Part shown: in pieces, positions 47,819 to 59,653 of the stretch
Numbering within the stretch: the first letter of the stretch is position 1
Layout: each line of letters begins with the position of its first letter
Virus record (IMG/VR): IMGVR_UViG_3300017963_000242
Span: 1-64,000 of that record
Source of the DNA: a virus
Reading direction: 5' to 3' (one strand)
DNA: 64,000 bases
Notes under the pieces: generated by a model
Told to the model about the DNA's origin: nothing
Database searches by the model: none
The model's input: the letters and a program-made list of their open reading frames with translations, nothing else
Program-made: the position numbers and the translations under genes

Positions 47819-47927
47819 CGAAAAATCGTATGCCTATATGAGGTTATGATTGCTCTTAGCTGGACTCCCTGGCGTTGACGCTTGGGTGGGAATCCCTGAT
47901 TGTTACGCGCCCATCCGCGCTAAGAAT

Positions 47928-47961
47928 ATTATAGCAGGTTTGCGGCACGATGTCAAGCTAT
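47928..47961 (-). promoter_or_regulatory. Leftward promoter L2
   Basis: TTGACA 47956-47951, 17 bp, TATAAT 47933-47928; shares a 19-bp element with 59635-59653. Confidence 0.85.
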
Positions 47962-55218: not shown

Positions 55219-55606
55219 GCGCCGACCAGTTTGTCACACTCACATACGGAATCGGTTGTGTCCACGTGGCCCAATATTCCGGCACGTCTACAGCAATCGG
55301 CTGCCCACCTCGAAACGTCCGGCTTGTCAAATCGCCAGCATCTAACGCCCTGGCCTGAAACGAAGGCCAGCCTACCGGAGAGACTGTCACCCAGTCGCCA
55401 CACACAACCAGCCCGCTCTCAAACGCCTCTTTCGGAAACGCTACCCAAGGGCCAATTGAGCGGTCATAGACAAGCCCGCTGCCCTGGTCGCAGTACAGCG
55501 GATTGCCAATGTGTTCCGCCTCTGTATACTGCGTCGCTACACCTGTGTATGTGTATGCGTGTGCTGCTATGAGCGATAGCATTAGGATGTGCATTAGACG
55601 ACCCAT
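55181..55606 (-). CDS. Secreted RlpA-like double-psi beta-barrel protein
   Basis: Signal peptide; GVATQY, WVA, CGDWV, ALDAG, AVDV. Confidence 0.55.
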   Translation of the reverse strand: MGRLMHILMLSLIAAHAYTYTGVATQYTEAEHIGNPLYCDQGSGLVYDRSIGPWVAFPKEAFESGLVVCGDWVTVSPVGWPSFQARALDAGDLTSRTFRGGQPIAVDVPEYWATWTQPIPYVSVTNWSALERECRERGWCD

Positions 55607-56934
55607 CCTGGTTGCGCCTTGCGCCTCGCCTTACGTGAGAGACGGTCAACGTAGGCGCAGATATAGCGAGTGTAGTCTACAGAATGATCATTTTCTTTCA
55701 CTGGAACGTCCTTCGCTTTCTTGTCTGCCCACACATAGCCCGGAATCTCTTCTTCCAGACACGTCGGCGCGTGCGATTCCGACAAAGTGTCGTCCTTGTA
55801 TCTCAGGCAGTCTCGAACAATGAATAGCCGGTCCTCTGCAAATCGCTGCTGAACATTCGTAATGCCCGGTAGTACATCCGTAAAAGCCGCTACCGCAGGC
55901 AACCCAGCGCGCCTAAACTTGGCTATGTACGCCGGTTGTTCTGCGCCACATTGCAACGTCTCGAACTTGAATTCTTTGTACAATTCCTTAGCTCGCTCAA
56001 GCCACCAGTCATCCGTCTCACCTGTACGATAGAGTTGAGCGACTAGGTACATTCGCCCTTCCCAATCGACGGCAAAGACACCCATCGCGCCCGGATTTCG
56101 ATAGCCCCAGTCAATCCCAGCCACATAGCGGTGAATGGCCTGCGGAACATCCACCTGATAAATGAGATGGCGCGACTCGGTATACTGCTCATAGACAACG
56201 CCTTCGGACTGTACCCACCGACCGAAACGTAGACGCTCTTTACGCGCACCCGTCAAACTGTCCAGCTTGGCAATATAGTCTAGCCCGAACTCTGTCCAGC
56301 CGTTCTCATTGTCATATAATAGTGGATTCTCTTCGTGCCGACTATTGAGCAAGGTCATCGCCGGGCCGCTCGACCGTCGCTTGATCCAGTGCTGTGGTGG
56401 CCCTGGGTTACAGTCGCCCAACAGTTGACGATAAGGCATTGCCGTGCCACGCAGTCGAGTAATCAATATCTCGACATCGCCCTCGCTAAACTCTTCAGTT
56501 TGTAGGCACAGCACTAAATCAAATTCGCTCGATAGAATTCGACCGGGCTTATCAATCCCGCCTGTATTGATCTGGCTTCCGTTATCGTAAAGGTAGACTT
56601 GGCGATTTGGCCTCTTGGGACCATTGAGCACCATCGGGTGGTCTAGGCCGAGCACGAACTTTTCAAATGTTTGTAGGCCCGTCTCGCTCAGGCTTGTGCG
56701 CGTCTTGCGTACAATGAGCGCACGAGTACCAGGATATGTTAAGCAGCAGTAGTTTAGCTTCTCAAGGCCAGCGCGTGTTTTGCCTGTCCCGGCAGGTCCA
56801 GAGATGAGAATGGCCGCCGCCGCGCTTGCCAGTAGTTCAACTTGCGTCCCGCGAGGCGCGTACTTGTTCCTCGGATTGATCCCCTTCGGGATGTCTTTCT
56901 CTAATCTCTGCCAATACTCGGTGATAGAATGCAT
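55594..56934 (-). CDS. terL: Terminase large subunit (PBSX-like)
   Basis: GPAGTGKT, DCNP, GIDWG, NDHSVDYTRY. Confidence 0.92.
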   Translation of the reverse strand: MHSITEYWQRLEKDIPKGINPRNKYAPRGTQVELLASAAAAILISGPAGTGKTRAGLEKLNYCCLTYPGTRALIVRKTRTSLSETGLQTFEKFVLGLDHPMVLNGPKRPNRQVYLYDNGSQINTGGIDKPGRILSSEFDLVLCLQTEEFSEGDVEILITRLRGTAMPYRQLLGDCNPGPPQHWIKRRSSGPAMTLLNSRHEENPLLYDNENGWTEFGLDYIAKLDSLTGARKERLRFGRWVQSEGVVYEQYTESRHLIYQVDVPQAIHRYVAGIDWGYRNPGAMGVFAVDWEGRMYLVAQLYRTGETDDWWLERAKELYKEFKFETLQCGAEQPAYIAKFRRAGLPAVAAFTDVLPGITNVQQRFAEDRLFIVRDCLRYKDDTLSESHAPTCLEEEIPGYVWADKKAKDVPVKENDHSVDYTRYICAYVDRLSRKARRKAQPGWVV

Positions 56935-57481
56935 CCATCGCCGCCTTTGCTTCTTCTGGATTCAAGCCGACCTGCTTGACCTCGATTTCGCCATCCTTGC
57001 CCGTGCCGCTATGCTGAACCTTCGTCGTAGCATACACGCCGAAAATCTTGCACCGCTGCTCAATACACCATTGAATGCCAGTCAAGAATCGCGGGTCGCC
57101 TGCTTGCCCTTTGCGCGTGCGCTCCACTGTGCTTGTATGAACCTGGCCCGGAGTATCGCCCGGCTGCCCTCGCTGTCTGACTGTCTCTGTGTCCTCACAA
57201 CTTCGCAACCACGCATTCCAGTATGTGACCTCTAAGTGATTGATTCGAGCAAGCTCTTGCGCCTTTGCGTCGTCAATGTCGGCTAGTCCAGATTCGCGCC
57301 AACTCTTGACCAACACGCCGATGTCATAGCTAACCATCTGCTGTGTGAGCGTATAGTCGCGGCTATCGTCCTCGTTAATCTTCTCGGCAATCTCGGCCTG
57401 CTTCCAGCCTTGCAGATACCAGTCTGCAATCTGGCGTCTATCTCGCTCTATTTGAATCTGTGTTCGTTTATTCGCTGCCAT
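56837..57481 (-). CDS. terS: Terminase small subunit
   Basis: N-terminal HTH (QAEIA..QQMVSYDI), GDPRFL, HSGTGKDGEI; directly upstream of terL. Confidence 0.75.
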   Translation of the reverse strand: MAANKRTQIQIERDRRQIADWYLQGWKQAEIAEKINEDDSRDYTLTQQMVSYDIGVLVKSWRESGLADIDDAKAQELARINHLEVTYWNAWLRSCEDTETVRQRGQPGDTPGQVHTSTVERTRKGQAGDPRFLTGIQWCIEQRCKIFGVYATTKVQHSGTGKDGEIEVKQVGLNPEEAKAAMDAFYHRVLAEIRERHPEGDQSEEQVRASRDAS

Positions 57482-57573
57482 ACTACAATACAAACCTCAT
57501 ATACAAACCTAGCAGTCAGTGCTTGCTATCGCGGCCCTACCCCTCCGTCAGTTTTGGCATGGCGCTCATTGCG

Positions 57574-58053
57574 TTATTGGCTCTCAATATACTTTTTAGC
57601 TGGGAGCAATAGCGGGCCACCCCCGATCAAAATGATAGCTTCGCTCACCGTCACGGTCAGCAATGACAACCAGAACAGATCGATCTCAAGCGCCCATAGC
57701 ATCACCGCAACCGCCGCCCCTGTCGTCGCCGCATATACGAACAGTGGAACGGCGATCCACTTTCTTTGCAAGGCTCGGTAGATGGTCCAGGCGAGCAGTC
57801 CACCAGCCATATCAGTCAGCGGCATCCATACCAGTTCCCACGGTCCGACAAAGGGGCTGGTCAAGTTTGCGATCAACGTCCCGATGCCAATACCCAAGCA
57901 CAAGAACGGATCAAACAACACGAATACCTTGAGCGCCTCGCTCGCTCTGAACTGGATCGGCCCAAACGAGAGCGGCGAGATGCCCACGGTGAGCACCACA
58001 TACAACGCCGCCACGATTGCAATCAAAACCACTCTTTTCGTCGTCAGTTTCAT
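57574..58053 (-). CDS. queT: QueT-family queuosine-precursor transporter (ECF S-component)
   Basis: AIVAALYVVLT..PLSFGPIQFRASEAL...GTLIANL; multiple TMs; riboswitch upstream. Confidence 0.88.
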   Translation of the reverse strand: MKLTTKRVVLIAIVAALYVVLTVGISPLSFGPIQFRASEALKVFVLFDPFLCLGIGIGTLIANLTSPFVGPWELVWMPLTDMAGGLLAWTIYRALQRKWIAVPLFVYAATTGAAVAVMLWALEIDLFWLSLLTVTVSEAIILIGGGPLLLPAKKYIESQ

Positions 58054-58058
58054 CATAA

Positions 58059-58094
58059 CTCCTGTCTTTGTTGCGCGGGTGACTGCGACCGCGC
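58059..58094 (-). ncRNA. preQ1 class I riboswitch
   Basis: GCGCGG-TCGCAGTCAC-CCGCGC-AACAAAGACAGGAG; A-rich tail runs into the queT Shine-Dalgarno. Confidence 0.85.
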
Positions 58095-58102
58095 CGATTT
58101 TG

Positions 58103-59287
58103 TTAAGCCGGGTTGTCGGAACCGGCATAAAGCTCGTTCACCTTCCACCCTACATTGCCCAGCGAAATAGACAGAGCGATGTAGGCGGGATTGACACGAG
58201 TGTCAATCCCGTATGCTGGCAAGTCCTTCCGCGTCCCATCGGGTAACACCGCGCCCCCCACTTGCGCGATTTTGCTTAGATAGTTATTGTCAAAACTTAC
58301 CACATCGTCACCTAGCGCCGCCATGTGTGCAAGCTGTGCCTTCCAGCTTCCGCCCAGCAGATGAACACGCCGCCCTTTGAACGCCTCTGTAGGCAAAGGT
58401 GTACCGCCGTGGGAGGTAGGCACAGAGTAGCCCAGCACATAGCGATCTGGTATTTGATCAAGCACGTCCACTTTCGGGATCACAATCACGTTCTCAGCGT
58501 ACTGCTCAAGCTCCATCGCCCAATCAAGCACCTGGGGCAATTCGCAGAACTCGATACCGACTTCGTCACACTGTGACTTGCTCATATAATCGCGCACGGT
58601 AGCGTACTTGGGCCGTCCCTCTCGGCAAGCTGCCAAATGCTTACCGTGGTCGTATTTCTCGTAATCGCAATCAACAAACATAAGGCCGTGACTGCCCATT
58701 ATGTTCATATTTGGACAAAATGCCTTTCCTGATTGTAGCCCATAGCCGAACCCGGCCATAGCCGCCAAGCAACACGACGCCGGAAAAGTGGCAGTATAAA
58801 TCGCATCAATCGGTAGCTGGCGCGGATTCGGTTTGGCGCTCTTCGGTACGCCTAACAAATCTCCCGGCTCATCCCACCCCACCAACTCCCCCTCTTCGAA
58901 CCCCCAGTCGAGCAGGTCGGACATCTCGAACGACGACGCCAACTCATCCCAGTCCCACTGGCCCGTCGTGCCCTTGTGCAAGTACACCACCAACTTTTGC
59001 CGCTCTTGCTCCGTCAGCGCCCGCGACGACACGCGCACGTCTACCTCGTAATCCGGGCCAAACTGCGGCAGCACGCTCCACACGAGTTTTCTCTGATGCC
59101 CATCATACACTTCGTTAGTCGGGCCTATGGCGATGGTTTGAATCTGGCCGAACTCAGCCAGCGACTCGCCCAGCCGCTCGGCCTCACGTTTGTTGATCTC
59201 ACGCGGGTTGTGCTCCCACGGAACAAGATCACGTAGCTTGCGGCGCTCATTCGTCCAAGTTATCGGTTCACTGTGCAAGTCGCCCAT
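58103..59287 (-). CDS. ParB-N domain fused to TGT/DpdA-like (DUF6610-like) domain
   Basis: LVPWEHNPR..FG..DGHQR ParB-N; C-terminal FVD, YATVRD, VHLLGGS, SFD. Confidence 0.7.
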   Translation of the reverse strand: MGDLHSEPITWTNERRKLRDLVPWEHNPREINKREAERLGESLAEFGQIQTIAIGPTNEVYDGHQRKLVWSVLPQFGPDYEVDVRVSSRALTEQERQKLVVYLHKGTTGQWDWDELASSFEMSDLLDWGFEEGELVGWDEPGDLLGVPKSAKPNPRQLPIDAIYTATFPASCCLAAMAGFGYGLQSGKAFCPNMNIMGSHGLMFVDCDYEKYDHGKHLAACREGRPKYATVRDYMSKSQCDEVGIEFCELPQVLDWAMELEQYAENVIVIPKVDVLDQIPDRYVLGYSVPTSHGGTPLPTEAFKGRRVHLLGGSWKAQLAHMAALGDDVVSFDNNYLSKIAQVGGAVLPDGTRKDLPAYGIDTRVNPAYIALSISLGNVGWKVNELYAGSDNPA

Positions 59288-59613
59288 ACTCTACCTTTCC
59301 AACACAAAACGCGGCGAACCAAACATCTCGCCGCGTTACTTACTAATGTAGAAAAACCAGGCTGGTCGCCTGGCTGAATGTCGTCCCGATGCTGTTGTTA
59401 TAGCATCGTCCATTTGTAGTCCTAAATCGGGGCGTGGACAAGACGGGGGGGAGCCTTATCCACAACCCCATGAACAAGCGCATTTGCGCTTTTCACCAAA
59501 GACCGCGCCGCCGTTGTCTACTCACTCATCCCGATTACGACGACGCGGCCCTAAGGAGAACACAGAACCGAAAGACTGTTGCCCAAGCAGTAGAAAGGAA
59601 GGTTCTGTATCAC
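59288..59613 (-). ncRNA. Highly structured ~325-nt late-operon leader
   Basis: About seven consecutive hairpins, last two followed by U-rich runs. Confidence 0.55.
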
Positions 59614-59619
59614 ATTCTC

Positions 59620-59653
59620 ATTATACTCGATTCCCGGCAGGATGTCAAGCTAT
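59620..59653 (-). promoter_or_regulatory. Leftward promoter L1 (late operon)
   Basis: TTGACA 59648-59643, 17 bp, TATAAT 59625-59620. Confidence 0.85.

What the first reader, a model, noticed from the sequence alone, without database searches (positions are those of the whole stretch)
57574..59287. preQ1 riboswitch + QueT + ParB-TGT-like fusion: candidate salvage-fed 7-deazaguanine DNA modification system beside terminase
Seen: the short gap between the ParB fusion and queT contains GCGCGG-UCGCAGUCAC-CCGCGC-AACAAAGACAGGAG. Known: this follows the preQ1-I fold (T. tengcongensis aptamer as recalled: CUGGG-UCGCAGUAAC-CCCAG-UUAACAAAACAAG), with the tail running into the SD; QueT is an ECF S-component for preQ1; DpdA (TGT fold) inserts 7-deazaguanines into phage DNA. 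Seen: the upstream protein has ParB-N plus FVD/HLLG/SFD motifs resembling TGT barrels. It occupies the slot next to terS where ParB-methylase fusions usually sit, and no folE/queCDE genes are in the window. Inference: the phage senses intracellular preQ1, imports it on demand via host ECF modules, and exchanges it into its DNA, possibly coupled to packaging.
Basis: partly seen in the sequence, partly recalled or inferred. Interest (0 to 1): 0.92.

Follow-up and report, generated by a model that had tools for sequence, protein, structure and literature searches.

The report
Phage preQ1-salvage DNA-modification module with riboswitch
An uncultivated phage carries, next to its DNA-packaging genes, a fused ParB-like/transglycosylase-like enzyme and a riboswitch-controlled importer that most likely let it scavenge the base preQ1 and swap it into its own DNA; the parts are known, but this fused, salvage-only, two-aptamer layout is not described.

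Summary
On the minus strand of a 79.8-kb viral record, 94% complete, lie four genes in a row.
- A 394-aa ParB-N + DUF6610 fusion (58103-59287).
- A QueT gene (57574-58053).
- terS and terL.

DUF6610 is the family that Cui et al. 2023 named DpdA4. It is the presumed dPreQ1 inserter of halovirus HVTV-1 and was said to be specific to archaeal viruses.

The gap before queT holds a Tte-like type II preQ1-I aptamer. It scores below Rfam's threshold (18.8 against 39 bits). A model built only from relatives finds it at 42 bits, as the single hit in 64 kb. Its stem covaries. In 26 of 26 relatives the element precedes yhhQ, queT, queF or the DUF6610 gene.

Tandem preQ1-I aptamers are listed as not found in a 2022 review.

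The phage has no QueC, QueD, QueF, FolE or TGT gene.

Of 99 DUF6610 loci, 76 carry yhhQ, queT or queF close by.

In a near relative, ParB-N plus a C5-methylase fills the same slot.

Insertion into DNA and ligand binding are inferred, not shown.

This scan has noted similar salvage-only modules and tandem preQ1-like aptamers on other phage DNA.

The parts
58103..59287 (-). Gene for a 394-aa fusion protein: ParB-N domain plus DUF6610 (DpdA4-like) TIM barrel
   Evidence: Pfam PF20314 5.1e-35 for residues 177-345. 756 homologues, most about 400 aa with the same architecture. AF2 model with mean pLDDT 91.1.
58883..59287 (-). ParB-N (DpdB-like NTPase-type) domain, residues 1-135, with motif D62-G-H-Q-R66
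   Evidence: PHROG ParB-like families and the ParB part of ParB-methylase fusions, 1e-16 to 2e-12. Profile against PDB: pNOB8 ParB-N 6.7e-4, Spo0J 5.6e-3. Foldseek 5k5d 3.6e-6. VIA-align Z 11.7, rmsd 3.0, 129 aligned. G63 invariant and R66 at least 90% conserved.
58106..58840 (-). DUF6610 barrel, residues about 150-394, with invariant D161, D206, D233, K272, H309-LLGG313 and D333
   Evidence: invariant columns. VIA-align: archaeosine TGT 1iq8 Z 13.0, 239 aligned; TGT 3unt Z 12.0, 228 aligned; DpdA 7ui4 Z 11.3, 228 aligned. Foldseek lists many TGT entries at 3e-4 to 2e-3. tblastn to HVTV-1 gp69 2e-14.
58094..58126 (-). Aptamer A (new here): preQ1-I-like H-type pseudoknot embedded in the last seven codons and the stop codon of the fusion gene. 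P1 GCCGG/CCGGC, loop UUCCGACAAC, A-rich tail UUAACAAAA, P2 CCGA:UCGG.
   Evidence: Model R3, built without the window, scores 49.5 bits, E 7.6e-10. P2 is 100% paired in 9 sequences, 3 of 4 pairs change on both sides, and 0 of 500 shuffles reach the score. L060 reads the same hairpin in another reading frame.
58059..58093 (-). P1 CGCGG/CCGCG, loop UCGCAGUCAC, tail CAACAAAGACAGGAG. Tail C64-A63-G62 pairs with loop G83-A84-C85, so the first bases of the SD AGGAG (58063-58059) lie in P2.
   Evidence: RF00522 18.8 bits over the full model 1-45. R2 42 bits, E 2.4e-9. P1 100% paired in 22 sequences with 3 of 5 pairs covarying.
57574..58053 (-). queT: ECF-type S component for preQ1 (159 aa from the ATG at 58053; the ATG at 58056 is also possible)
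   Evidence: Pfam QueT 4.4e-26, 92 bits against a cut-off of 33.7. The genome search PF06177 1.5e-27. No EcfT (PF02361) in the phage.
56837..57493 (-). Probable small terminase subunit
   Evidence: Weak Terminase_5/HTH matches, position directly before terL, and 39% identity to the equivalent gene in L003.
55594..56934 (-). Large terminase subunit
   Evidence: PHROG 2 terminase large subunit 3.9e-27; Pfam Terminase_3 and Terminase_6N.
59308..59648 (-). Leader of the operon: consensus promoter TTGACA (59648-59643), 17 nt, TATAAT (59625-59620), then two terminator-like hairpins (59373-59352 and 59337-59308) before the fusion gene
   Evidence: Read directly. The hairpin at 59337-59308 is listed. 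A look-alike promoter lies at about 47950.

Best explanation
This is a salvage-fed 7-deazaguanine (most likely preQ1) DNA-modification module in the late operon of a tailed phage.

Shown:
- The phage encodes a single-chain ParB-N + DUF6610/DpdA4-type protein, a QueT substrate-capture subunit, and two preQ1-I-type aptamers between them.
- It has no genes to make preQ0 or preQ1.

Inferred mechanism:
1. QueT docks on the host's ECF energising module and imports preQ1.
2. When free preQ1 is high, it binds aptamer B. The P2 pseudoknot then closes over the first bases of the queT Shine-Dalgarno sequence and translation of the importer drops (an OFF switch, as in the T. tengcongensis queT leader).
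3. Aptamer A abuts aptamer B and lies under the stop codon of the upstream gene. It probably sharpens the response, or links it to ribosomes that terminate on the fusion gene.
4. The DUF6610 barrel exchanges guanine in double-stranded phage DNA for preQ1 by TGT/DpdA-type chemistry. D333 would be the nucleophile, D206 the general acid/base and D233 the base-recognition residue.
5. The fused ParB-N domain would play the part that the separate ParB-like ATPase DpdB plays for bacterial DpdA.

The modified DNA would resist host restriction enzymes.
For: Riboswitch:
- RF00522 matches full length at 18.8 bits.
- The leave-one-out model scores 42 bits, E 2.4e-9, and is the only hit in the window.
- 22 related elements have P1 100% paired and three pairs with changes on both sides.
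- Both aptamers carry 'AC' before the 3' strand of P1, the type II signature.
- The gene behind the element is YhhQ in 19 loci, QueT in 4, DUF6610 in 2 and QueF in 1, with no other kind. These are unrelated transporter families behind one RNA.

Aptamer A:
- Its P2 covaries as CCGA:UCGG, CCGC:GCGG, CCAA:UUGG and ACAG:CUGU.
- Model R3 scores 49.5 bits.

Enzyme:
- DUF6610 is DpdA4 of HVTV-1, whose DNA carries dPreQ1 (PMC10516641). tblastn to gp69 gives 2e-14, and gp69 keeps the same Asp motifs.
- The best structural matches by aligned length are ArcTGT, TGT, Cap10 and DpdA.
- hhalign pairs HLLGG with YLMGVG and F-D333 with the F-D nucleophile of TGT.
- Of 21 viral records, 10 have both QueC and QueF, 11 have YhhQ and this one has QueT.
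- Of 99 loci, 76 have yhhQ, queT or queF within the flanks, mostly directly downstream.

ParB domain:
- DpdB is a ParB-like ATPase with motif DGQQR and is required by DpdA (PMC10164549). Here the motif is DGHQR.

DNA-modification slot:
- In L008 a ParB-N 92% identical to this one is followed by a C5 DNA methylase, terL and portal.

Salvage only:
- No QueC, QueF, QueD, FolE or TGT in a record that is 94% complete.
Against: - No biochemical evidence exists for any DUF6610 protein. Cui et al. could not show DpdA4 activity in E. coli.
- The structural match to TGT enzymes is tied in Z with generic TIM barrels at 11-13. hhalign probability is only 0.2%. Pfam TGT, PADLOC and NCBIfam give nothing.
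- Mycobacterium phage Funsized has the ParB-DUF6610 protein and also a separate DpdA-like gene, so DUF6610 need not be the inserter there.
- In L045 and L046 a preQ1-type aptamer sits in front of the DUF6610 gene itself. An OFF switch on a preQ1-consuming enzyme is not what the simple model predicts.
- Aptamer B is below Rfam's gathering score. Aptamer A is not seen by RF00522 at all and occurs in only one clade of 10 loci.
- The 6% of the genome that is missing could hold other genes.
Confidence: 0.62

Rival explanations
1. The fusion protein is a tRNA-guanine transglycosylase analogue. The phage imports preQ1 to raise queuosine-type modification of tRNA, host or phage, and so tune translation. 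It does not modify DNA.
For: The barrel resembles tRNA TGTs at least as well as DpdA (1iq8 Z 13.0, 3unt 12.0, 7ui4 11.3). preQ1 is the natural substrate of bacterial TGT, and preQ1 riboswitches normally serve the tRNA pathway.
Against: - It is fused to a ParB-N domain of the kind that works on DNA and that DpdA needs in trans.
- The same slot holds ParB-N plus a DNA methylase in a close relative.
- HVTV-1, whose only TGT-like gene is DUF6610, has dPreQ1 in its DNA.
- There are no tRNA genes in the window.
- There is no Zn-subdomain or PUA-type RNA-binding extension after the barrel.
Confidence: 0.1
2. DUF6610 is a preQ1-pathway enzyme of another kind, for example a glycosylase or hydrolase that releases or recycles 7-deazaguanine bases. 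It would be a supply gene, not the inserter. Where DNA is modified, another protein does it.
For: - In L045 and L046 the DUF6610 gene is itself behind a preQ1-type aptamer, the logic usual for supply genes.
- Funsized has a separate DpdA-like gene beside it.
- The TGT similarity is statistically weak.
Against: - This phage, and 10 other viral records without QueC or QueF, have no other TGT-like gene.
- The three invariant aspartates sit after strands 3, 4 and 8, as in TGT and DpdA.
- A transglycosylase and a glycosylase share the first half-reaction, so the evidence does not separate the two sharply.
Confidence: 0.13
3. Only aptamer B is a riboswitch. Hairpin A is a conserved RNA hairpin with another role (mRNA stability, ribosome pausing at the stop codon, or processing), or a by-product of the conserved C-terminal peptide.
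For: - RF00522 does not detect A.
- A is confined to one clade of 10 related loci.
- Its P1 never varies, so only P2 carries covariation.
- Shared descent inflates such counts.
- The folding energy of the whole region is no better than that of shuffles, z = -0.05.
Against: - Four different, perfectly complementary P2 combinations occur, with one strand in codons and the other beyond the stop codon.
- L060 keeps the hairpin in a different reading frame.
- The architecture matches preQ1-I point for point: U after P1, AC before the 3' strand of P1, an A-rich L3 and a 4-bp P2.
- Model R3 cross-detects true aptamer B sites at 11-17 bits.
Confidence: 0.3
4. The RNA resemblance is chance, and queT is simply translated constitutively.
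For: The element is below Rfam's gathering score, with E 0.14 even in a 301-nt search.
Against: The leave-one-out hit at E 2.4e-9, the covariation and 26 of 26 elements lying in front of preQ1-related genes from four unrelated families.
Confidence: 0.03

Closest known systems
DpdA4 (DUF6610, PF20314) of halovirus HVTV-1, gp69 (Cui, Hutinet et al. 2023, PMC10516641)
   Same: Same Pfam family. The motifs are conserved (D..IT, F.D.D, VGYSVPT, HLLGG, VS.D.N). It is linked to preQ1 through QueF and QueC in its neighbourhood. The HVTV-1 genome carries dPreQ1.
   Different: gp69 has an acidic N-terminus and no ParB-N domain, and HVTV-1 makes its own preQ1. The family was described as specific to archaeal viruses. 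Here it is in bacterial viruses and in bacterial genomes and MAGs labelled Chloroflexota, Streptomyces, Moorellaceae, Peptococcaceae, Methylococcaceae and Uhrbacteria, fused to ParB-N and fed by salvage.
Bacterial Dpd system: DpdA + DpdB of Salmonella Montevideo (PMC10164549; PDB 7ui4)
   Same: A TGT-fold DNA transglycosylase that needs a ParB-like NTPase with a DGQQR motif, and three essential or invariant aspartates.
   Different: There the two are separate proteins, the substrate is preQ0, and a large Ins8/Zn region is present in DpdA. Here there is one chain with a DGHQR motif and a minimal barrel, the DpdB C-terminal helical domain is absent, and no PADLOC Dpd model matches.
Type II preQ1-I riboswitch of Thermoanaerobacter tengcongensis in front of its queT-type gene (RF00522; review PMC11625349)
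   Same: 5-bp P1, a loop UCGCAGU.AC that is almost identical, an A-rich tail, partial burial of the SD in P2, and a queT gene downstream.
   Different: It is in a phage, inside an operon rather than in a 5' leader, below Rfam's threshold, and preceded by a second aptamer.
Streptococcus phage Dp-1 (QueT next to DpdA; dPreQ1 DNA)
   Same: A phage-encoded QueT adjacent to the DNA transglycosylase gene.
   Different: Dp-1 also has FolE and QueC, QueD and QueE in the stretch read, a classical DpdA, and no annotated riboswitch in its tightly packed operon.
Mycobacterium phages Funsized, Rinkes and Knocker, gene 1 ('ParB-like nuclease domain protein')
   Same: The same ParB-N + DUF6610 fusion (34-37% identity, 1e-36) at the genome end near the terminase.
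   Different: Funsized, the one whose neighbourhood was read, also carries QueF, a DpdA-like gene, QueC, QueD, QueE and FolE. It shows no transporter and no riboswitch, and the DUF6610 half is not recognised in the annotation. The neighbourhoods of Rinkes and Knocker were not read.
ParB-N/DNA-methyltransferase pairs or fusions beside phage terminase genes
   Same: The same slot and the same ParB-N domain. L008 has a 92% identical ParB-N followed by a C5 methylase. PHROG 498 matches the N-terminus.
   Different: The catalytic module is a base-exchange barrel instead of a methylase.

Membership tests
preQ1-I riboswitch (Rfam RF00522), type II | Score at or above Rfam's gathering threshold (39 bits) | tested here: not met
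   18.8 bits for aptamer B and no gathering hit in the window. Relatives reach 25.5 bits. Aptamer A is not reported at E up to 10.
preQ1-I riboswitch (Rfam RF00522), type II | H-type pseudoknot: a P1 of about 5 bp, a loop, an A-rich tail, and a P2 between loop and tail, supported by covariation | tested here: met
   P1 of aptamer B is 100% paired in 22 sequences and 3 pairs covary. P2 of aptamer A is 100% paired and 3 of 4 pairs covary. P2 of aptamer B shows A-U and U-A replacements in L051, L142 and L045b.
preQ1-I riboswitch (Rfam RF00522), type II | Specificity cytosine preceded by A ('AC') just before the 3' strand of P1, and U after the 5' strand of P1 | tested here: met
   UCGCAGUCAC|CCGCG and UUCCGACAAC|CCGGC. 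The criterion is taken from PMC11625349.
preQ1-I riboswitch (Rfam RF00522), type II | Sits before queuosine-precursor genes, with the SD in or next to P2 | tested here: met
   26 of 26 elements precede yhhQ, queT, queF or DUF6610. In the window, AGGAG overlaps P2.
preQ1-I riboswitch (Rfam RF00522), type II | Binds preQ1 and changes expression | not testable with these tools
   Needs in-line probing or ITC and a reporter assay.
QueT (PF06177), ECF S component for preQ1 | Pfam match above the curated cut-off | tested here: met
   92.3 bits against 33.7; 92.5 bits.
QueT (PF06177), ECF S component for preQ1 | Works with an EcfAA'T module | not testable with these tools
   No EcfT in the phage record. 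Use of the host module is inferred, and the host is unknown.
DUF6610 / DpdA4 | Pfam PF20314 match above the cut-off, and similarity to HVTV-1 gp69 | tested here: met
   121.4 bits against 27; tblastn 2e-14.
DUF6610 / DpdA4 | Encoded with preQ1 supply genes | tested here: met
DUF6610 / DpdA4 | Restricted to archaeal viruses (as first described) | tested here: not met
   Found in bacterial MAGs and isolates and in mycobacteriophages. The description of the family needs widening; the membership itself is not in doubt.
TGT/DpdA superfamily (PF01702-type transglycosylases) | Sequence-profile match to TGT | tested here: not met
   No PF01702 match at E up to 1. hhalign probability 0.2%. The literature reports HHpred 92.5% for gp69.
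TGT/DpdA superfamily (PF01702-type transglycosylases) | TGT-like (beta/alpha)8 barrel | tested here: inconclusive
   ArcTGT is ranked first (Z 13.0, rmsd 4.5, 239 aligned). TGT scores 12.0 and DpdA 11.3, but unrelated TIM barrels score 11-13 with shorter alignments.
TGT/DpdA superfamily (PF01702-type transglycosylases) | Three invariant active-site aspartates (general acid/base after strand 3, base recognition after strand 4, nucleophile after strand 8) | tested here: inconclusive
   D206, D233 and D333 are invariant and sit at the ends of model strands 202-206, 228-230 and 329-333. Only D333 is paired with the TGT nucleophile by an alignment, and that alignment is weak.
TGT/DpdA superfamily (PF01702-type transglycosylases) | Guanine/7-deazaguanine exchange activity | not testable with these tools
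   Needs an enzyme assay or LC-MS.
ParB/DpdB-like NTPase domain | ParB-N fold | tested here: met
   Foldseek 5k5d 3.6e-6. Z 11.7, rmsd 3.0, 129 aligned. Profile against PDB 6.7e-4.
ParB/DpdB-like NTPase domain | Nucleotide-binding motif (GxxRxxA in ParB; DGQQR in DpdB and SspE) | tested here: met
   D62-G-H-Q-R66. G63 is invariant and R66 at least 90% conserved.
ParB/DpdB-like NTPase domain | Pfam ParB_N above threshold, and the DpdB C-terminal helical domain | tested here: not met
   No PF02195 hit for this protein at E up to 0.01, although some homologues carry one. The C-terminal half is DUF6610, not the DpdB/SspE helical domain.

The most novel reading that the evidence does not exclude
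Two claims together.
1. The two abutting aptamers form the first natural tandem preQ1-I riboswitch. Its first aptamer is encoded inside the end of an ORF, so ligand sensing is coupled to termination of translation of the upstream modification enzyme and gives a sharper on-demand control of precursor import by a virus.
2. The ParB-N + DUF6610 protein is a self-contained, NTP-driven, preQ1-specific DNA transglycosylase, a natural DpdB-DpdA fusion of a distinct lineage. It is widespread in bacterial phages and prophages and is not an archaeal-virus speciality.
Probability: 0.35. Interest if true: 0.75.

Novelty: new variant of a known kind. Interest (0 to 1): 0.6.

Why it matters
7-Deazaguanine DNA modification is a major anti-restriction strategy of phages. 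So far it is understood mainly through phages that make preQ0 themselves and use classical DpdA enzymes.

This locus and its roughly 100 relatives would show four things.
- The DUF6610/DpdA4 lineage is common in bacterial viruses.
- It is usually fused to the ParB-type domain that bacterial DpdA needs in trans. That gives a one-protein system, which would be convenient for biochemistry and for enzymatic labelling of DNA.
- Phages can run the modification purely on scavenged base.
- They regulate the importer with a metabolite-sensing RNA.

Riboswitches in viruses are rarely documented. Tandem preQ1-I aptamers are listed as not found in the 2022 survey of tandem riboswitches. These elements are also missed by Rfam's threshold, so standard annotation does not see them.

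Tried and rejected
- Rfam at gathering score over the whole window: nothing.
- phmmer of the protein against PDB sequences: only noise.
- PADLOC and NCBIfam on the fusion protein: nothing.
- hhalign of the 86-sequence DUF6610 profile against four bacterial TGTs: 0.2% probability. It is used only for which motifs it pairs.
- Minimum-free-energy folding of the 85-nt region: both hairpins are predicted but z = -0.05, so thermodynamics alone says nothing.
- tblastn of QueT against 50,697 phage records: no match. Dp-1's QueT is too distant.
- tRNA scan of the window: none.
So there is no environment, expression or read-level evidence, and read laying was not used.
- MAFFT alignments of the tandem region mis-register L003 and L060 by one column. 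I therefore counted only P2 for aptamer A and used the model-fitted alignment for aptamer B, which leans towards the model's structure.
- Hairpin A as a by-product of a conserved C-terminal peptide: rejected, because L060 keeps it in another frame and half of P2 is non-coding.
- A transcription terminator between the fusion gene and queT: none found, so control is most likely translational.
- Host assignment was not achieved. Labels of homologue-bearing MAGs point weakly to Chloroflexota.
Full report
**What is there**

The window is the first 64 kb of a 79.8-kb IMG/VR virus record that is linear and estimated 94% complete. Between 55.6 and 59.3 kb the minus strand carries four genes in a row.
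- A 394-aa ORF (58103-59287).
- A QueT gene (Pfam 4.4e-26). Its most likely start is the ATG at 58053, five bases after AGGAG.
- A probable small terminase subunit.
- A large terminase subunit (PHROG 2, 3.9e-27).

About 330 nt upstream of the first gene lies a consensus leftward promoter, TTGACA-17-TATAAT. It is followed by two terminator-like hairpins. The module is therefore the head of what looks like the late packaging operon.

The sequence is exactly as quoted.

Rfam gives no match at gathering score. In a 301-nt search RF00522 matches over its full length at 18.8 bits (E 0.14, gathering 39). That is suggestive only, so I looked at relatives.

Scans with the fusion protein and its alignment fetched about 100 non-redundant loci from viral, genomic and metagenomic collections. 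A covariance model of 13 such elements found 24 elements at E below 0.05 in 497 kb. A second model built without the window's sequence hits 58054-58095(-) at 42 bits, E 2.4e-9. The next best hit in the 64-kb window scores 9.4 bits.

In 22 elements P1 is paired in 100% of cells. Three of its five pairs change on both sides: GC, AU, CG and UA at the base; CG, GC and UA; and GC, AU and UA. No shuffle of 500 reaches the observed covariation score. This alignment is fitted to the model, which favours the structure.

The 'AC' before the 3' strand of P1 is the type II signature. Tail C-A-G (58064-58062) can pair with loop C-A-G (58085-58083). This places the first bases of the SD in P2, which is the 'partial SD occlusion' described for the Tte riboswitch.

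The strongest argument is context. The gene behind the element is YhhQ/Vut_1 in 19 loci, QueT in 4, QueF in 1 and the DUF6610 gene itself in 2, and never anything else. YhhQ and QueT are unrelated families whose shared property is import of preQ0 or preQ1.

**A second aptamer (A, 58126-58094)**

A descriptor scan that asked only for a 5-bp stem, a loop from U to C and an A-rich tail found another hairpin directly upstream of aptamer B in ten loci. It reads GCCGG UUCCGACAAC CCGGC UUAACAAAA UCGG.

It covers the last seven codons and the UAA stop codon of the fusion gene. Its loop CCGA is complementary to the tail UCGG, and this P2 was not a search criterion. In relatives the pair of strands reads CCGC:GCGG, CCAA:UUGG and ACAG:CUGU. 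All cells are paired, 3 of 4 pairs change on both sides, and 0 of 500 shuffles reach the score. Sliding the partner by one column drops pairing to 34%.

One strand of P2 is coding and the other is non-coding. L060 keeps the hairpin in a different reading frame. Selection therefore acts on the RNA.

A model of aptamer A built without the window scores 49.5 bits on the window. It also weakly cross-detects aptamer B sites.

RF00522 does not report aptamer A, and A is limited to one clade. Ligand binding by A is therefore less certain than for B; I put it at about 0.6 to 0.7.

The 2022 survey of tandem riboswitches lists preQ1-I among the classes never found in tandem.

**The protein**

- Model. 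AlphaFold2 with 86 homologues gives a confident model (pLDDT 91). It has a ParB-N domain (1-128), a disordered linker, and an eight-stranded alpha/beta barrel (about 160-394).
- ParB-N domain. Foldseek matches pNOB8 ParB-N at 3.6e-6. The profile search against PDB gives 6.7e-4. It carries D62-G-H-Q-R66.
- Barrel. It belongs to Pfam DUF6610. The only paper in the library that mentions this family is Cui, Hutinet et al. 2023. It named HVTV-1 gp69 'DpdA4', reported HHpred probabilities of 100% to DUF6610 and 92.5% to TGT, noted that HVTV-1 DNA carries dPreQ1, and called the subfamily specific to archaeal viruses.
- Structural matches. In the Foldseek-independent search the first rank is archaeosine TGT (Z 13.0, 239 aligned). 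Cap10, bacterial TGT and DpdA 7ui4 follow at Z 11.3-13.0 with 212-228 residues aligned. Ordinary TIM barrels reach the same Z with 170-190 residues. The fold evidence is therefore consistent with TGT but does not decide it.
- Conserved residues. Invariant residues in 86 sequences include D161, D206, D233, K272, H309-LLGG313 and D333. D206, D233 and D333 lie at the ends of strands 3, 4 and 8. Those are the positions of the general acid/base, the base-recognition residue and the nucleophile in DpdA and TGT.
- Profile alignment. The only hhalign alignment to TGT pairs HLLGG with YLMGVG and F-D333 with the F-D nucleophile, but at negligible probability. gp69 of HVTV-1 keeps the same motifs and has no ParB domain.

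**Comparative genomics of DUF6610**

Of 21 viral records with the gene, the same 10 have both QueC and QueF. Eleven have YhhQ, and only this one has QueT.

In 99 non-redundant loci, home-made HMMs and the QueF active-site motif find YhhQ in 45, QueT in 6 and QueF in 38. They lie mostly directly downstream on the same strand. The 23 loci without any of these were not examined individually. At least four of them (L091, L122, L128, L167) end at or within a few bases of the gene, and the whole records of three others (L078, L080, L087) do carry QueC and QueF.

The steady partnership with QueF, QueT and preQ1 aptamers points to preQ1 rather than preQ0 as the base handled.

The family is clearly bacterial as well as archaeal. 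It occurs in MAGs labelled Chloroflexota, Anaerolineae, Moorellaceae, Peptococcaceae, Methylococcaceae and Uhrbacteria, in three Streptomyces isolates, and in Mycobacterium phages Funsized, Rinkes and Knocker. In Funsized, the one whose annotation was read, gene 1 is annotated only as a ParB-like nuclease domain protein.

**Why DNA, and what the ParB domain is for**

Bacterial DpdA inserts preQ0 into DNA only with DpdB, a ParB-like ATPase with a DGQQR motif. The fusion here joins the same two kinds of domain in one chain.

In L008 a ParB-N domain 92% identical to this one is followed by a C5 cytosine DNA methylase, then terL and portal. In close relatives the slot thus holds alternative DNA-modification modules.

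**Salvage only**

The record has no QueC, QueF, QueD/PTPS, GTP cyclohydrolase I or TGT-family gene and no EcfT. The base must come from the host pool or from outside. QueT must use a host ECF module. Both points are inferred.

**Points that do not fit neatly**

- Funsized has both the fusion and a classical DpdA-like gene.
- In the Moorellaceae and Peptococcaceae loci the operon reads aptamer-yhhQ-queF-aptamer-DUF6610. The second aptamer overlaps the end of queF. A consumer of preQ1 that is repressed by preQ1 is unexpected, and this keeps open a 'supply enzyme' reading of DUF6610.
- Cui et al. could not obtain DpdA4 activity in E. coli.

**Comparison with what is known, and novelty**

Already known:
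- DpdA-type DNA modification.
- The proposal that DUF6610 is DpdA4.
- Phage-encoded YhhQ, noted in 2019 without correlation to any group of phages.
- QueT next to DpdA in phage Dp-1.
- Type II preQ1-I riboswitches on queT.

Not found in the library:
- The ParB-N + DpdA4 fusion and its wide bacterial distribution.
- A riboswitch-gated importer as the sole precursor source of such a module.
- Tandem preQ1-I aptamers.

Earlier notes of this same scan describe related salvage-only ParB-like + DpdA-like + riboswitch-YhhQ cassettes, and tandem preQ1-like aptamers, in other phage DNA. They are unchecked AI notes and I did not use them as evidence. They do suggest that the layout recurs.

**Verdict**

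The finding is a new variant of a known kind. Confidence in the full model is about 0.6. The riboswitch identity of aptamer B is about 0.9, and QueT is about 0.95. DUF6610 as a DNA 7-deazaguanine transglycosylase is about 0.7.

Noticed in passing
window 59308-59648 (-) and 47920-47960 (-): A consensus leftward promoter (TTGACA, 17 nt, TATAAT at 59648-59620) is followed by two terminator-like hairpins (59373-59352 with a T5 run, and 59337-59308) before the fusion gene. A near-identical promoter (tagCTTGACATC..TATAAT) lies at about 47950, also with a hairpin plus T-run in its leader. This looks like late-operon control by antitermination.
   Followed up: partly
L008:125-1608 (IMGVR_UViG_3300028840_001104): In a close relative, a ParB-N ORF 92% identical to residues 6-141 of the fusion is followed by a C5 cytosine DNA methylase (Pfam 2.3e-56), then terL and portal. 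This is a module swap between base exchange and methylation in the same slot.
   Followed up: partly
L045:2859-5245 and L046:2854-5185 (Moorellaceae and Peptococcaceae MAGs): The operon reads preQ1-I aptamer, yhhQ, queF, a second aptamer that overlaps the 3' end of queF, then ParB-DUF6610, followed by a stand-alone ParB_N protein. The DUF6610 gene itself is thus behind a preQ1-type aptamer, which the simple consumer model does not explain.
   Followed up: partly
L174:1-4917 (Mycobacterium phage Funsized, OP297541): Gene 1, annotated only as a ParB-like nuclease domain protein, is a ParB-N + DUF6610 fusion. It sits with QueF, a separate DpdA-like gene, QueC, QueD, QueE and FolE. That gives two TGT-like proteins in one cluster, perhaps one for preQ0 and one for preQ1.
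   Followed up: no
L061:4143, L116:2802, L124:2596, L097:998: Aptamer-like hairpins occur after DUF6610 or queF genes in which the 3' strand of P1 contains the start codon (..CAUGA/CAUGU) or the SD (CAGGAGG) of the next gene (yhhQ). They may be further variants that mask the start codon directly. They were not tested for covariation.
   Followed up: no
L102, L110, L125 (about 45 nt before their aptamer B): These loci lack aptamer A. They have another conserved GC-rich hairpin (GGCGC ACGA GCGCC type) at the end of the DUF6610 ORF, followed by GACCCAAAAG. Its role is unknown.
   Followed up: no
window 58103-59287 (-), protein residues 172-240: Nearly invariant C172, C173, C191, H200, H214, H217 and C240 lie between strands 1 and 4 of the barrel. 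They could form a metal site in a different place from the C-terminal Zn subdomain of TGT.
   Followed up: no
L003:3361-3550: Two tRNA genes (61.7 and 41.8 bits) lie just upstream of the ParB-DUF6610 gene in the 58%-identical relative. The window has no tRNA genes.
   Followed up: no
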